A DNA stretch of 64,000 bases from Chrysemys picta bellii. Lineage: Eukaryota. Where the stretch lies: the NCBI RefSeq assembly GCF_011386835.1, contig NC_088792.1:153078001-153142000 (forward strand), in the 5' to 3' direction. The position numbers were made by a program. Shown here one piece after another: positions 3,001 through 42,000 of this stretch (position 1 is its first letter; every line of letters begins with the position of its first letter).

Positions 3001-6000
3001 ATGTGGGGTTGGCACAAGCTTCCTGGCATTGCTGCTCGCTCTCCAAATGTTCTTCCGTGCCCCCCCACGGTTTGAAAACCTTGCTCCAGCTGCACAAAGG
3101 CCCTAATACGTGTCTATTTGTGTCCCCGGTGCGAGTAGTACACTAGGCACTACATTGACAGATCAGAAGAGCCCAGTCCCTGCATCCCTGAACTCTAAAT
3201 AGAACACTGTAAGTGCAACCCCTGGAGTACATGGGAGTGCTTGGCTCCCACCATTTTGTTTACTTTGTTATTTGCCCGTCTTCCCCAACTCCTCCGCCCT
3301 CACCACCAGCACCCGCGGTGCAGCTGTTGGTTTAATGCTCTGTTGTTCCCTCCCACCCCTTATTTTGTGGTCTCCTGGCTATTTCCATGATAGCAAATTA
3401 ATGCTGGTTCCTATGAAGGCTATCCAGGACCTGGCTGTGACTTGGGTTGAGGGACGTGCGTAGTGTGGGTTAAAAAGAAAAGCAACTTGTGCAAAAAGTT
3501 CATAGACGTTAAGGCCAGAAGGAACCATTATGATCAGCTGGTCTGACTTTCTCCATTGCAGGGAGTCACAGCGTTTAAGGCCAGAAGGGAGCACTAGGTC
3601 CTCTAGCTGATCTTCTGTATGTCTCAGGCCACCAATACCACTCAGCACCTCCTCACTAAACCCACCAATGGAAATGAGATTGCTAGGAGACTAAACTATT
3701 ATGTACCACAGACCGAGAATAGGAGGGATTAAGGTGCACCAGTGCTCCAGGCCCCTCAATGGCAGGAAAAGGATTAAATGAGATGTACCCAGATAATCCT
3801 GGCAAGTGACCCCCACCCAGATGCTGGAGAAGAAGTCAAGAGACCCCTAACATCACTGCCAATTTGACCTGGAGGGAAATTTCCTTCCGACCCCATACAT
3901 GATAATCAGTGTGACCCTGAGCATGTGAGCGAGAACCAGCCAGCTGACACCTGAGAGAGAGAGAGAGAATGTTCGGTGCCACCGCAGAGCCCAGGCCCAC
4001 CCCACCCAAAATCCCATCTCCAATCATGGCCATCCCTGATGCTGCAGAGGAAGGAGATAAAAATTTCCAGAATACATGGGGGGGAATCCCTTGCTTGACC
4101 GCTGCTGGTGGCTGGCTGAAGCAGGTACTTTAATAACACAAGACACAAACTGGAAGTGAGCCCCAGAGCTGTTGAGCCCCACCCTTCACCATCTCAAGCA
4201 AGCCCTTCATCCAGTTGCACTCAGAAAATTTCCAGTTGACTTGCCTGGTTACTAATGTTCATGTTTCCATTGGGTGGGATGCTTCTAGGTCTGCATCCAC
4301 GACACCGTCTGGCTCCCCTAGAACCTCACAGCAGAATGTCTACAATCCACCGGACGTCTCCACGTGGAACCCGTTCGATGACGATAACTTCTCCAAACTC
4401 ACGGCGGAGGAGCTGCTGAACAAGGACTTTGCAAAACTGAGCGACGGTGAGTTTACAGGAGCGCTTCGGTGTCAGCTAGCGACTGGCGTTGCTCCCTTCT
4501 GGACCTGGGAAAGCGGGAATGGCATAACGGTGGGGGGGATGACAGCAGCTAGAGGCTTCTGAAATGTCCCAGTTACAGAGAGTTCTTGTGAGCGCGAGAA
4601 CCCGCGGAACTAACCTGTTAACATTGTGCATCCAGTAGTTTTGTCTCTTACTTTAATTGGGCATGTGGCATACTGCACAAGCCCTCCAAGATGTAATGTT
4701 CGTCTGCAACCCCTGCTCACCTCTGCTAGTGCCTTCCTCTCAGTGAGGTCAGGGAGAACTCGAGTAAGGATGGTAGGCTTATCAGGGCCAGAGCCTATCA
4801 CGGTATATCCATTACATTGCTGCATACAGACCTGCAGCACGCAGATTAAGTTATATTGCTTCATTAATGATCTGGAGGATGGTGTGGACTGCACCCTCAG
4901 TAAGTTTGCAGATGGCACTAAACTGGGAGGAGTGGTAGATAGGCTGGAGGGCAGGGGTAGGATACAGAGGGACCTAGACGAATTAGAGGATTGGGCCAAA
5001 AGAAATCTGAGGTTCAACAAGGACAAGTGCAGAGTCCCGCACTTAGGACAGAAGAATCCCATGCACTGCTACAGACTAGGGACCGAATGGCTAGGCAGCA
5101 ATTCTGCAGAAAATAGGTGTTATAGTGGACGAGAAGCTGGATATCAGTCAGTAGTGTGCCCTTGTTGCCAAGAAGCCTAATGCCATTTTGGGCTGTATAA
5201 ATAGGGGCATTGCCAGCAGATCGAGGGACATGATCGTTCCCCTCTATTCGACATTGGTGAGGCCTCCTCTGGAGTACTGTGTCCAGTTTTGGGCCCCACA
5301 CTACAAGAAGGATGTGGAGAAATTGGAAAGAGTCCAGCCCAGCGGAGGGCAACAAAAATGATTAGAGGGCTGGAGCACATGACTTATGAGGAGAGGCTGA
5401 GGGAACTGGGATTGTTCATTCTGCAGAAGAGAAGAATGAGGGGGGATTTGATAGCAGCCTTCAACTACCTGAAAGGGGGTTCCAGAAAGGATAGATATAG
5501 ACTGTTATCAGTGGTAGCAGATGACAGAACAAGGACTAATGGTCTCAAGTTGCAGTGGGGGAGGTTTAGGTTGGATATTAGGAAAAACTTTTTCACTAGG
5601 AGGGTGGTGAATTACTGGAATGGGTTACCTAGGGAGGTGGTGGAATCTCCTTCCTTAGAGGTTTTTAAGGTCAGGCTTGACAAAGCCCTGGCTGGGGTGA
5701 TTTAGTTGGGGATTGGCCCTGCTTTGAGCATGGGGTTGGACTAGATGACCTCCTGAGGTGCCTTTCAACCCTGATATTCTATGAATGATGGCTTGCAAGA
5801 AGTATGAGTAAAAATACTGTTCTGCCATGGTATTTTATAGGTGTTTAAATAGAGAAATGTAGATCAGCTTCAAAATGGGAGCAATCTACTGTCGAGTGTA
5901 ATCCGACATTCTGGAATTTCAGGTAAACCTCCAGAAAAGCTTGGCAGCTCCACAGAGAACTTGATTCCAGGCTTTCAGCCAGCTCCCTCTACAACACAGG

Positions 6001-39000: not shown

Positions 39001-42000
39001 GACAGCATACGCTTCAGAGAAGGTAGACAGTATTTTTGTACAGTATCTTATAAAATGCTCACCTATATCTACACTGCTTTACTTTACAGTGTAATGTATT
39101 TTAAGTGAATAGTTTCCCAATAAACAATCGTTTGGATGTCTATCTGAGTATTGTCTTTAATTATGAGAAATTGGTGTAATATATTATGTGTTTTATGCCT
39201 GAAGTTCAGTGTGTATGTTTACATATTTTATATATGCAGAGGATGGGGGTGGGTGATCATGCAAGTTTGCAAAACTGCGAGATGTGTTTTGCTTAAAGCA
39301 AAAGGAAGTGTAAGTGCATTTTTCTGTCCTATTGCTCGATGAATATCACGTACCAAAACCCAAATATTTTTGTCTGGAATCTATACTGCTTTAGTTTTTC
39401 ATGTGCCTTTTTCCTATCCTCTTGCTAACATGAGTCCAATGACATACTTCTAACCTGCTAATAGTTCTTTGAAGGTAAGATATCTTGTATTCTGATAACT
39501 GTCTGTGTGATTCATAAGGCAAAAACAAGCCAACTCTTGAGCTTGTATAACTAGAGAACAGCAGGATAGTAAGCCTCCATTTCTTCCTTATTAGTAATAT
39601 CTTACTAACACCTAGAACCAAGCTAGTCCATTAGAAGCGTGTTAGATATTTCATTTGTAATCATTATATAGGGTTGTTTAAATTTAACTGTGACTGTTTT
39701 GCAATGGCTTGAGTACCATTGTGAAAATTACCGGATTTGATACAAAATCCTGTAGGATACCTTGCTAAAGGAAACACGTTTTATTTCTTTTAAAACACCT
39801 ACTACTTTCACAGTAAGGGACGCCAGTGTGTGTATTTTACGTGCCCTCAGTGCAATGCCACTTTTTTCTGTGAGCCAGCTCCCAGAAATAAAAATTAAAT
39901 CTTTAAAAAATGCCAAACAATATACAGTAGAACCCCTATTTTATGAACTAATTTGGAATTGAGGCATTCATAAAATCCAAGAGTTCATAAAATTGAAGAT
40001 CTCAACTTTGCAAGAGGTATGGTGCATAAGTTGCAGGGTGGTGCACCACATTCTTGGTTTTTCTTTCTTGTTCTTCAAGCCACTGCAAAGTGATTTGCAA
40101 GGCACTGAATGCATCAGAATGTGAATGTCAACTTGTTCTTCACTGACATTTTTTGTGTTATGATTTTTGCCCTCCCCATCAGAAAGATGGTTCATATAAG
40201 AAGTCATTTGTAAGATTGGATTTGTAAAATCGAGATTCTACTCCACTGCTATTTGCAAGTAGGGGGCTGTTATGTCAATAGGCAGTGTTGATTATACTGA
40301 GACCTGTCCATTCACTGGTACTTCACGCTAGACAGCAGTTTTCCGAAATGAAAACCCACGTAGGTTGTGGTTCTTGTGAGTGATCTATAGAAAAGATCCT
40401 TGTAGAACGATGTCAGGAGGGAATGTTGAATTGGAACGTCTGAGTATCTAACATCTTCCATTTCTTTTTAACATGTTGTACTTGTGGTGTCCTTAATTGT
40501 GAGGAAGTGCTTAATTTTTTTCCAGTTTGTGTGCTTTGAATGCCTTGCCTGATCTTAATTTTATTTTATTTTCCCATTTTCCATGTGTGGCAGTTTAAAT
40601 CTGAACATCATAACATTTCTGATATGGTTAAGTTTCTTTTGTGTTTGACTACATGAATCTAGCCCATTGAGTAATGCTCTTGTTTTGTTCTTATAGGTTT
40701 GCAGAGGGAACAAGTTGTATATCCTGTCCTAACCACTGAGCACAGTAAACTGTCTGCTGCTACTGATGGACTTCCTCTGTACAAAGGCCAGCCTGAAATG
40801 CTTGAAGTGAAAACTCAGCACAATTCAGAATCTGATTACTTCGCAAGAGATGGGCCTTCAAGCAACAGTTCTTTCCACAGCAGTGAGGGAGAGGGGACAG
40901 ACCATGAGGTGGACATCTTGGATTGTAGTGGGTCCAGGCCTTTACTTATGGACTCAGAAGAAGAAGAGGAGTCCAGTAAGTTGCAATCGACACTCAAGGA
41001 AAGATTTGTGGCTTCCAGAGAAGATTCCAAGCCCCAGCCTTCCCAGAGCGGTATGGGGAAAGCTCTGTTTACAGCCTTTCAGCAGCACTCCGGAGAAATT
41101 TTCAATGAGCCAGATGTCTTTGCCACGGCTCCTTTCCGAAGCTCAAGAATAGTGCATGATGAGTTGGACATCTTTACCAAAGCTCCCTTCATCTCCAAGA
41201 GCAATGTGCCTGTCAGGCAGCCAGAAGAGGCAGATGTATTCCTAAGTGCCCCTTTCACAAAAAAGAAAAGCTTGGAAGAGTTGACTTTTCATAACGTTTC
41301 CAAGGAGCCTCACATTCAAGCCTCTTTCCTAGGTCAAACTGGTGATGTCCAACATGTAGATAACTCCAAGTTCCAAAACTTGGATACAGGAACATGCGGA
41401 TTGTCTGTCTCATCTAGAGTTCAGTACTCTGGGGTAGGGTTTATTCAGCCAGCCAACCTTCCGTCTCATTCCGTAAGACCAGTGGAGACCCAAGAAGGCA
41501 TTCCTCCCAAAGGTACATTTAAAGATCTTGGTGGCATTCCTAATGATAAAAACCAAGGACATGCACTCCCCCAAGAAGCCATCTTGGGTTCAATGGTTAG
41601 TAAGCCTTTCCGTCCACAGTCTCTATCAAAGTATTCCCGTCACTACAGTCCGGAAGATGGGCAGGGTCTGGAAGTCCAACCTATAGCAGCATACAAAGTG
41701 GTTTCTCAGACCAACAAACAGGCTATCGCAGGATCTGTCTCTATTGCTTCTCTGTCTTCCAGGACTAAAGAGCTACCCAGCGTTGACCCATTTGCTTCAG
41801 CACCCTTTCCTTCCAAATCAGGAAAGCAAAAGCCTTAAACAGTCTGAGAGAAAGGGGGAATGTGCATTTCTCACAGGACCTTCAATCTCTTAGTCAAAAC
41901 GAGCAACCATAGCAATATTTTTTTTTGTTGTTCAAAACTCCAGTTGCGGTGATATTTAGTTAAACCATTTTAAGTTATGTTAGATAGTTTCAGGATATTG

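What the first reader, a model, noticed from the sequence alone, without database searches (positions are those of the whole stretch)
5923..41838. Modular C-terminal design: six consecutive symmetric phase-1 exons plus up to four alternative ends
Seen: exons of 117, 96, 102, 102, 111 and 105 nt are all phase 1-1 and multiples of three. All candidate ends (intron read-through at 9374, 18173, 30907, 40697) are also entered in phase 1. Inference: any subset of these motif-bearing exons can be skipped in frame and joined to any downstream end, giving a combinatorial code for AP2, clathrin and membrane binding. Similar sizes and recurring SLIPG (ENLIPGF, ESLIPGL, NLISGF) and DPF/DLL motifs suggest an origin by tandem exon duplication.
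Basis: partly seen in the sequence, partly recalled or inferred. Interest (0 to 1): 0.65.

Follow-up and report, generated by a model that had tools for sequence, protein, structure and literature searches.

The report
Turtle AAK1 modular tail exons
This is the 3' half of the painted turtle's AAK1 kinase gene, whose disordered tail is built from six small in-frame-skippable exons and two real alternative ends, an arrangement that public annotation already records.

Summary
The window is not human. It matches Chrysemys picta bellii (painted turtle) AAK1 at 100% identity.

Each has AG/GT borders, is phase 1-1 and is a multiple of three.

Two of the four proposed ends are real:
- 30907 encodes the conserved ...[10 protein letters not shown] tail.
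- 40697-41838 encodes a Pfam BMP2K_C domain (E=1e-36).

The read-through at 9374 has no turtle support. The site at 18173 is no better than chance.

In-frame skipping is already annotated. Among 297 cleanly classified named AAK1 models, 22 of 64 possible exon subsets occur, and nine occur with both ends. Usage is not free, though: E1 is almost constitutive, and E3-E5 are all present or all absent in 262 of 297 models.

Exon-to-exon similarity beats shuffled controls, but only through short motifs: LIxG[F/L] in 4 of 6 exons and D[P/A/E]F in 5 of 6. Tandem duplication is therefore plausible but unproven. The array is also present in a shark model.

Membrane binding is unsupported. Verdict: real and tidy, but already known at annotation level, and an example of a published principle.

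The parts
1439..1668 (+). AAK1 coding exon A (230 nt, phase 0 to 2). It has a tandem TAG|AAG acceptor (1439 or 1442) that gives isoforms with or without one Lys.
   Evidence: Isoforms X10 and X11 differ by this Lys.
4289..4446 (+). AAK1 coding exon B (158 nt, phase 2 to 1). It carries WNPF/NPF. Its donor opens the run of phase-1 introns.
   Evidence: The peptide is present in all fetched full-length models.
5923..6039 (+). E1, 117 nt, phase 1-1, with LIPGF and DAF motifs. Nearly constitutive.
   Evidence: Present in 295 of 297 classified models.
9278..9373 (+). E2, 96 nt, phase 1-1 cassette, with a DPF motif.
   Evidence: Present in 219 of 297 models (one of the three searches required E2).
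9374..9519 (+). Candidate read-through of the E2 donor (48 codons plus stop). Not supported in turtles.
   Evidence: ORF. No turtle protein carries the tail. Two bird models read through here with unrelated tails (P0123, P0127). AATAAA/ATTAAA hexamers lie 188 and 398 nt after the stop.
18173..18213 (+). Candidate short terminal exon (13 codons in phase 1). No support.
   Evidence: it is 1 of 10 acceptor-like sites in this intron, and 0 of 210 proteins have its tail.
23594..23695 (+). E3, 102 nt, phase 1-1 cassette, with LIEGL and DPF motifs.
   Evidence: Present in 101 of 297 models.
24580..24681 (+). E4, 102 nt, phase 1-1 cassette, with a LIPGL motif. Its acceptor tract is poor in pyrimidines (0.50).
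   Evidence: Present in 113 of 297 models.
26604..26714 (+). E5, 111 nt, phase 1-1 cassette, with DLL and DEFAPI motifs. Its acceptor tract is poor in pyrimidines (0.50).
   Evidence: Present in 93 of 297 models.
30177..30281 (+). E6, 105 nt, phase 1-1 cassette, with LISGF and DEFDPI motifs.
   Evidence: Present in 155 of 297 models.
30907..31001 (+). Canonical terminal coding segment (31 codons plus stop), ending ...[11 protein letters not shown]. It holds a clathrin-box-like LLLVD and the PDZ-binding LIDL.
   Evidence: Function from PMC13346677 passages.
40697..41838 (+). Alternative long terminal coding segment (380 codons plus stop). It holds a BMP2K_C domain with four DxFxxxPF motifs and is predicted to be disordered.
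   Evidence: Pfam PF15282, E=1e-36, profile positions 1-263 of 263. 100% identical to turtle isoforms X2 and X7-X11. Motifs. AlphaFold2 mean pLDDT 41.2.

Best explanation
The region is the 3' half of the AAK1 (AP2-associated kinase 1) gene of the painted turtle.

Downstream of the kinase and Q/P/A-rich exons, which lie outside the window, the tail is a disordered string of short binding motifs. Six small symmetric phase 1-1 exons encode it. Every donor ends in G and every intron is phase 1. The spliceosome can therefore drop any of these exons without shifting the frame or changing a junction residue.

In practice E1 is almost always kept. E3-E5 mostly go in or out as a block, and E2 and E6 are separate cassettes. 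This changes how many LIxG[F/L], D[P/A/E]F and DLL motifs the kinase carries.

The transcript then ends in one of two ways. One end is a short exon at 30907 that gives the conserved [10 protein letters not shown] tail, shown in human AAK1 to pull down clathrin and to bind the PDLIM5 PDZ domain. The other is reached by splicing past that exon to 40697, which gives a 380-residue BMP2K-type tail with four DxFxxxPF motifs. In BMP2K, the tail that carries nine such motifs binds AP-2 appendages.

Shown here: exon structure, phases, identity, the two ends, the annotated isoform variety, motif recurrence and its conservation. Inferred: that the isoforms are made in meaningful amounts and that they differ in partner choice and localisation.
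For: - Exons, splice sites, phases and junction codons.
- Identity: the long-end exon is 100% identical to six NCBI AAK1 isoforms of Chrysemys picta bellii. Their sequences show these exon sets joined to the long end: all six; E1+E2+E6; E1+E6; E1+E2; and E1 alone. X15 has E1+E3+E4+E6 and X16/X17 have E1+E2+E6, both joined to the canonical end.
- Isoform variety: of 313 named proteins, 297 were cleanly classified and show 22 of 64 subsets.
- Long end: BMP2K_C at 128 bits against a cut-off of 27, four DxFxxxPF motifs, and mean pLDDT 41.2 with no residue at 70 or above.
- Motif recurrence: LIxG[FL] in 4 of 6 exons and D[PAE]F in 5 of 6, each reached by 0 of 20,000 within-exon shuffles.
- Conservation: the modules and the LIDL tail are present in named models from a shark, an eel, a pika and an alligator.
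- Literature (passages only): DPF, NPF and DLL motifs, and brain 145 kD against liver 100 kD forms 'likely' splice variants (PMC2173317). LIDL binds the PDLIM5 PDZ domain, the tail peptide enriches clathrin, and LIDL is absent from BMP2K (PMC13346677). Nine DXFXXXPF motifs lie in the BMP2K C-terminal region, which binds AP-2 appendages (bioRxiv 10.1101/870899). AAK1L and AAK1S are known alternative finishes (PMC3327670; PMC10653628).
Against: - All isoform evidence is gene models from public annotation. I saw no reads or cDNAs. Some rows ('AAK1 kinase, partial' bird models and UniRef entries) are probably homology-based.
- The counts are biased by the three queries: long end, E2 and canonical end. 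Each search listed only the best 120 hits, out of 1621, 494 and 494.
- Thirteen of the 22 subsets rest on one or two models.
- Sixteen of the 313 proteins could not be classified cleanly, mainly teleosts and fragments.
- No function is known for LIxG[F/L]. One text search for the motif strings found nothing relevant.
- The motif definitions were made after looking at the data, so the shuffle counts overstate significance.
- The disorder call for the long end rests on an alignment of only 16 sauropsid sequences. The six cassette exons were not folded.
Confidence: 0.8

Rival explanations
1. There is a limited repertoire, not a combinatorial code. Only a few architectures are made on purpose: all six exons plus the LIDL end, E1+E2(+E6) plus either end, and E1 plus the long end. 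The remaining annotated combinations are splicing noise or model-building artefacts.
For: In one search four patterns account for 212 of 297 models: E1-E2+long 83, all six+canonical 68, E1+long 34 and E1-E2-E6+canonical 27. E3-E5 are all present or all absent in 262 of 297 and mixed in only 35. Thirteen subsets rest on one or two models. E1 is present in 295 of 297.
Against: The same rare junctions recur in unrelated lineages. Examples are E4 to E6 in Chrysemys X15 and Mauremys X8, E1 to E4 in Mauremys and in teleost models, and loss of E5 alone in a whale model. Random noise would be unlikely to produce that. The acceptors of E4 and E5 are individually weak (pyrimidine fraction 0.50), which fits individual regulation.
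Confidence: 0.5
2. The six exons arose by tandem duplication of one ancestral motif-bearing phase 1-1 exon, before jawed vertebrates diverged.
For: - All six share one phase class and a narrow size range (96-117 nt).
- The summed pairwise similarity has z=4.9 and was reached by 0 of 500 shuffles.
- Profile comparison of E1 with E4 scores 21 and of E1 with E6 scores 16.4. Each was reached by 0 of 60 column-shuffled controls.
- Most exons have an upstream hydrophobic motif followed 10-20 residues later by D-x-F.
- PMC3632108 (abstract) says symmetric exons of disordered proteins often arise by internal tandem duplication.
Against: - No single pair passes a Bonferroni threshold for 15 tests; the best is E1-E4 at p=0.013.
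- After removing cross-contaminated rows, the other profile pairs were reached by 1-3 of 60 controls.
- The alignments cover only 5-9 motif residues, and the motif sits at different offsets in each exon.
- There is no DNA similarity between the exons with 150 nt of flank on each side (best E=0.045, 12 nt).
- Short motifs of this kind can also arise repeatedly by convergence.
Confidence: 0.4
3. The read-through at 9374 and the site at 18173 are real additional ends that give truncated AAK1-short-like proteins.
For: The frame stays open for 48 codons after the E2 donor, and poly(A)-signal hexamers lie 188 and 398 nt after the stop. Two bird models read through the same donor, and a falcon model ends in a short exon after E2. 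A short AAK1 form with an alternative finish is published for mouse (PMC3327670). The site at 18173 has a good pyrimidine tract (0.85).
Against: No turtle model among the 313 named proteins has either tail. The bird tails are unrelated to each other and to the turtle ORF, and the falcon tail has no counterpart in the window. The site at 18173 is 1 of 10 equally good sites, and half of those give ORFs as long.
Confidence: 0.15

Closest known systems
AAK1 long and short splice variants (AAK1L/AAK1S; Henderson & Conner 2007, known here only through citing papers)
   Same: It is the same gene. There are alternative C-terminal finishes, and the longer tail adds a second clathrin-binding region made of several low-affinity motifs. 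E3-E6 plus the LIDL exon are the likely turtle counterpart (inference).
   Different: The primary paper is not held, so I could not map its variants onto these exons. In the passages I read, nothing describes exon-by-exon cassette use or a BMP2K_C-type end for AAK1.
BMP2K long and short variants and the BMP2K C-terminal region (PMC7473771; bioRxiv 10.1101/870899)
   Same: BMP2K is the paralogous NAK kinase. The turtle exon at 40697 matches Pfam BMP2K_C over the whole profile and carries the same DxFxxxPF motif type. The BMP2K preprint notes 'analogous splicing variation' in AAK1.
   Different: BMP2K lacks the LIDL tail (PMC13346677). I could not test whether BMP2K has counterparts of E1-E6, or what its intron phases are. 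No BMP2K sequence or eukaryotic locus could be fetched.
Symmetric-phase exons that encode disordered, alternatively spliced motif modules (Schad, Kalmar & Tompa 2013, PMC3632108)
   Same: Runs of same-phase symmetric exons, disorder, alternative splicing and frequent tandem duplication are exactly the published pattern.
   Different: That paper does not mention AAK1, clathrin or endocytosis (0 occurrences). This locus would be one more example, not a new principle.
Other endocytic adaptors with alternatively spliced motif exons, such as NUMB (PMC11889595, search listing only; others recalled, not checked)
   Same: Partner binding is tuned by including or skipping short motif-bearing exons in a disordered region.
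   Different: Here six consecutive exons share one phase, and they are combined with a switch between two unrelated tails.

Membership tests
AAK1 orthologue (NAK kinase family) | Sequence identity to annotated AAK1 proteins | tested here: met
   The long-end exon is 100% identical over 379 of 379 residues to six NCBI AAK1 isoforms of Chrysemys picta bellii. All six cassette peptides are found verbatim in isoform X2.
AAK1 orthologue (NAK kinase family) | N-terminal Ser/Thr kinase domain | tested here: met
   The kinase exons lie outside the window. The matching full-length proteins carry PF00069/PF07714 in the precomputed Pfam column.
AAK1 orthologue (NAK kinase family) | Conserved extreme C-terminus ...[10 protein letters not shown], which is AAK1-specific and absent from BMP2K | tested here: met
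   The exon at 30907-31001 ends in this sequence. It is the same peptide used as bait in PMC13346677.
Pfam BMP2K_C (PF15282) | Score above the curated gathering cut-off, with coverage of the profile | tested here: met
   128 bits against a cut-off of 27, E=1e-36, profile positions 1-263 of 263, residues 154-374 of the exon.
Pfam BMP2K_C (PF15282) | DxFxxxPF motifs, as described for the BMP2K C-terminal region | tested here: met
   Four matches: DVFATAPF, DIFTKAPF, DVFLSAPF and DPFASAPF. Motif definition from bioRxiv 10.1101/870899.
Symmetric phase 1-1 cassette exons encoding disordered motif modules | Both flanking introns in phase 1 and length a multiple of three | tested here: met
   True of all six exons.
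Symmetric phase 1-1 cassette exons encoding disordered motif modules | Alternative inclusion | tested here: met
   Met at the level of public gene models only: 22 of 64 subsets among 297 models. Transcript reads could not be examined.
Symmetric phase 1-1 cassette exons encoding disordered motif modules | Intrinsic disorder of the encoded segments | not tested
   Only the long end was folded (mean pLDDT 41.2). For the six exons I rely on PMC13346677, which calls the C-terminal region intrinsically disordered.
Tandem exon duplicates | Exon-to-exon similarity beyond shuffled controls along most of the exon | tested here: inconclusive
   The summed score has z=4.9 (0 of 500 shuffles). No pair passes multiple-test correction, and the similarity is confined to motifs.
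Tandem exon duplicates | Nucleotide similarity of the exons and their flanks | tested here: not met
   Only 10-12 nt chance matches, best E=0.045. This is expected if the duplication predates jawed vertebrates, so it is not decisive.
Alternative terminal exons | The tail is found in independent annotated proteins | tested here: met
   Met for 30907 and 40697. Not met for 18173 (0 of 210). For 9374, there is no support in turtles and the tails in two bird models are not conserved.

The most novel reading that the evidence does not exclude
AAK1 keeps an ancestral BMP2K-type tail as a regulated second end. Choosing between the exons at 30907 and 40697 would switch the kinase between two forms. 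One is a PDZ- and clathrin-directed form with the LIDL tail, linked in the literature to PDLIM5 and focal adhesions. The other is an AP-2- and FCHO-directed form with a DxFxxxPF array. The cassette exons, mostly absent from long-end models, would set the number of an uncharacterised, shark-to-mammal conserved LIxG[F/L] motif. The long form might be the unexplained ~145 kD brain species of Conner & Schmid 2002.
Probability: 0.3. Interest if true: 0.5.

Novelty: already known. Interest (0 to 1): 0.25.

Why it matters
AAK1 is a drug target for neuropathic pain and viral entry, according to the review PMC10653628. The paper passages I read treat it as one 961-residue protein or as a long/short pair.

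If isoforms really swap the PDZ- and clathrin-binding LIDL tail for a BMP2K-like AP-2-binding tail, and vary the number of motifs, then two things could depend on the isoform present: where the kinase is recruited, and how far it is redundant with BMP2K.

As it stands, the finding restates what public annotation of this very genome already contains, and it illustrates a published rule about symmetric exons and disorder. Its value is as a clean worked example and as a pointer to an unstudied motif (LIxG[F/L]) and an unstudied long isoform.

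Tried and rejected
- Rfam scan of the whole window found 0 families.
- Pfam on the six exon peptides and the canonical tail found 0 families.
- My first two presence/absence classifications gave cross-hits between exons and were replaced by an ordered alignment.
- The first profile comparison gave strong E2-E3 and E1-E3 scores. These were artefacts of E2 and E3 segments that had been collected into the wrong exon family. They fell to background after cleaning.
- The falcon and nightjar tails have no counterpart in the turtle window.
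- A search of the E2-E3 intron for a DLL-bearing alternative tail found nothing convincing.
- Text searches for the LIPGF, LIPGL and LISGF strings, for AAK1 cassette exons and for BMP2K_C/PF15282 found no paper that describes the AAK1 exon modules or an AAK1 BMP2K_C end. These were three searches of the held library only.
- Henderson & Conner 2007 is not held.
- No eukaryotic genome collection was on hand, so intron phases in BMP2K, other species and invertebrate NAK genes stayed unchecked.

Full report
**What the window is.** It contains no N. The gene lies on the + strand. The 379-residue ORF at 40699-41835 is 100% identical over its full length to six NCBI proteins named AP2-associated protein kinase 1, isoforms X2 and X7-X11, of Chrysemys picta bellii. 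LINE reverse-transcriptase remnants in the introns fit a reptile. The window is therefore painted-turtle AAK1, not human. I left out the step of joining exons into one query.

**Checking the observation.** Each has AG/GT borders and an open phase 1-1 frame.
- The pattern alone proves nothing. In 5001-43000, 214 AG..GT/GC stretches have these sizes and are open in this phase.
- What validates the exons is that their peptides sit verbatim in isoform X2.
- Upstream, exon A (1439-1668) is phase 0 to 2 and exon B (4289-4446) is phase 2 to 1. Seven consecutive introns are therefore phase 1.
- With the human phase frequencies of PMC3632108 (section 14 read), such a run has probability about 4e-4 (independent phases) or 1.3e-3 (first-order). 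That is notable for one gene. The same paper counts 4405 'successive (1,1)' exons, so it is not rare in a genome.
- All seven donors end in G, so each junction residue is set by the downstream exon alone: G, A, E, G, D, E for E1 to E6, and G for both real ends. Every junction seen in the fetched isoforms agrees with this.

**The four ends.**
- 30907: the exon gives [35 protein letters not shown]. This is the canonical AAK1 tail, found in models from a shark, teleosts, mammals, birds and reptiles.
- 40697-41838: this exon matches Pfam BMP2K_C at 128 bits (cut-off 27) over the whole profile. It carries four DxFxxxPF motifs. AlphaFold2, run with a 16-sequence alignment, gives mean pLDDT 41.2, no residue at 70 or above, and no secondary structure. 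That fits a disordered array of motifs.
- 9374: the frame stays open for 48 codons. A search with E2 plus this tail found 494 proteins, of which 120 were listed, and none carries the turtle tail. Two bird models read through the same donor, with tails of 4 and about 88 residues that are unrelated beyond the first two residues. A falcon model ends in a different short exon. None of these tails has a counterpart in the window.
- 18173: this is one of 10 acceptor-like sites in its 14.2-kb intron, and 5 of the 10 give at least 12 phase-1 codons. None of the 210 proteins held at that stage has its tail. I treat it as unsupported.

**Is skipping used?** Three searches returned 321 proteins. I dropped 8 that carried no name, which left 313. 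Of these, 297 could be classified cleanly by ordered alignment to the six modules. The 16 others are fragments, teleosts too divergent for my thresholds, or odd models.

The 297 show 22 of the 64 possible subsets: 19 with the long end, 12 with the canonical end, and 9 with both. In Chrysemys itself I saw:
- all six exons + long end (X2)
- E1+E2+E6 + long end (X7)
- E1+E6 + long end (X8)
- E1+E2 + long end (X9)
- E1 + long end (X10 and X11)
- E1+E2+E4 + long end (a UniRef fragment)
- E1+E3+E4+E6 + canonical end (X15)
- E1+E2+E6 + canonical end (X16 and X17)

The use is not free. E1 is in 295 of 297 models. E3-E5 are all present or all absent in 262 of 297 and mixed in 35. Four patterns make up 212 of 297. 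Long-end models mostly lack E3-E5 (148 of 182), while canonical-end models mostly have them (74 of 115).

Three caveats apply:
- These are gene models, not reads. That NCBI 'X' isoforms usually need transcript support is my own knowledge, not a tool result.
- The sample is shaped by my three queries and by the limit of 120 rows per search.

**Exon duplication.**
- Pairwise local alignment of the six turtle peptides against 2000 shuffles each gave a best p of 0.013 (E1-E4). No pair passes correction for 15 tests. The summed score is far out, at z=4.9 and 0 of 500 shuffles.
- Profile comparison with orthologue alignments first gave misleadingly strong E2-E3 and E1-E3 hits, caused by mis-assigned segments.
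- After cleaning, E1-E4 scores 21.0 (E=9e-5) and E1-E6 scores 16.4. Each was reached by 0 of 60 column-shuffled controls. E5-E6, E2-E3, E3-E4 and E1-E3 were reached by 2, 1, 1 and 3 of 60.
- The aligned stretches are the motifs themselves. LIxG[F/L] is in E1, E3, E4 and E6, and D[P/A/E]F is in all but E4. Each was reached by 0 of 20,000 within-exon shuffles, with the caveat that I defined the motifs after seeing them.
- Both motif sets are kept in a shark, an eel, a pika and an alligator.
- The exons with 150 nt of flank on each side share no DNA similarity.

Even so, the data cannot separate an ancient duplication from repeated gain of the same short motifs. Whichever it was, the array is already present in a shark model.

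**How it most likely works.** Conner & Schmid 2002 (passages) place DPF (alpha-adaptin), NPF (EH domains) and DLL (clathrin) in the AAK1 C-terminal domain. They also note 145 kD brain and 100 kD liver forms as likely splice variants. PMC13346677 (passages) shows that the tail peptide enriches clathrin and PDZ proteins, that LIDL binds the PDLIM5 PDZ domain with Kd about 94 uM, and that BMP2K lacks LIDL. A preprint on BMP2K (passages) finds nine DXFXXXPF motifs in its C-terminal region, which binds the AP-2 alpha and beta2 appendages.

My reading is that splicing sets the number of weak AP-2 and clathrin motifs, and that the choice of end swaps a clathrin- and PDZ-binding tail for an AP-2-type tail. 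The partner assignments for the turtle protein are inference. I found nothing that supports 'membrane binding'.

**Comparison with what is known.**
- AAK1L and AAK1S are published (cited; the primary paper is not held).
- BMP2K long and short variants are published.
- The link between symmetric exons, disorder, alternative splicing and tandem duplication is published. That paper does not mention AAK1.
- Text searches found no paper that describes the exon-by-exon modularity, the LIxG[F/L] motif or a BMP2K_C end in AAK1. The isoforms themselves are in public annotation of this genome.
Supplementary Fig. 9a of PMC13346677 may show AAK1 isoforms.

**What stayed unchecked.**
- Intron phases in BMP2K and in invertebrate NAK genes, because no eukaryotic genome collection was on hand.
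- Transcript evidence.
- Whether mammals use the long end. The 120 rows listed were all sauropsids, apart from one unnamed row that was dropped.

**Verdict.** The feature is real and accurately described. Two of the four ends hold. The combinatorial reading is true mechanically and partly reflected in annotation, but usage looks block-wise. Duplication is plausible but unproven. The finding is already known at annotation level, and I score interest at 0.25.

Noticed in passing
window 1426-1450: There is a tandem acceptor (cctag|AAG|CAG) at the start of exon A. Annotated turtle isoforms differ by exactly this one lysine (VKQAPIR in X10 against VQAPIR in X11 and X2).
   Followed up: partly
window 4614-5705, 6672-7016 and 54394-55636 (+): These are LINE reverse-transcriptase remnants (…[13 protein letters not shown]… ORFs). 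The 54394-54795 ORF matches Pfam RVT_1 at E=4e-18. I recall this sequence type as CR1-like, but that was not tested.
   Followed up: partly
window 10183-11704 (+), inside the E2-E3 intron: Two long overlapping ORFs (373 and 162 aa) have no Pfam match. The ESM Atlas places the first among unnamed 'hypothetical protein' clusters of arthropods and sponges (0.95). There is only a weak lead (0.77) to RAG1-type RNase H. It is probably a transposon-derived ORF.
   Followed up: partly
window 43338-43683: A near-perfect hairpin: two 158-nt arms, 91% complementary, 30 nt apart. It lies about 1.5 kb downstream of the long-end stop codon. It gives mirror-image ORFs on both strands. Its nature is unknown, and it may be a small foldback element.
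   Followed up: partly
window 14403-14542: A second, weaker inverted repeat (62-nt arms, 73% complementary) lies in a GC-rich patch of the E2-E3 intron that has long ORFs on both strands.
   Followed up: no
window 48000-52000: A GC-rich block (GC 0.505 against about 0.40 around it) has long proline/arginine-rich ORFs on both strands and no Pfam match. It could be a CpG island or the promoter of a neighbouring gene.
   Followed up: no
proteins P0102 and P0229 (Alligator mississippiensis): Two database entries named 'BMP-2-inducible protein kinase isoform A/B' carry the AAK1 modules. Isoform A also carries the AAK1-specific LIDL tail. They look like mis-named AAK1.
   Followed up: partly
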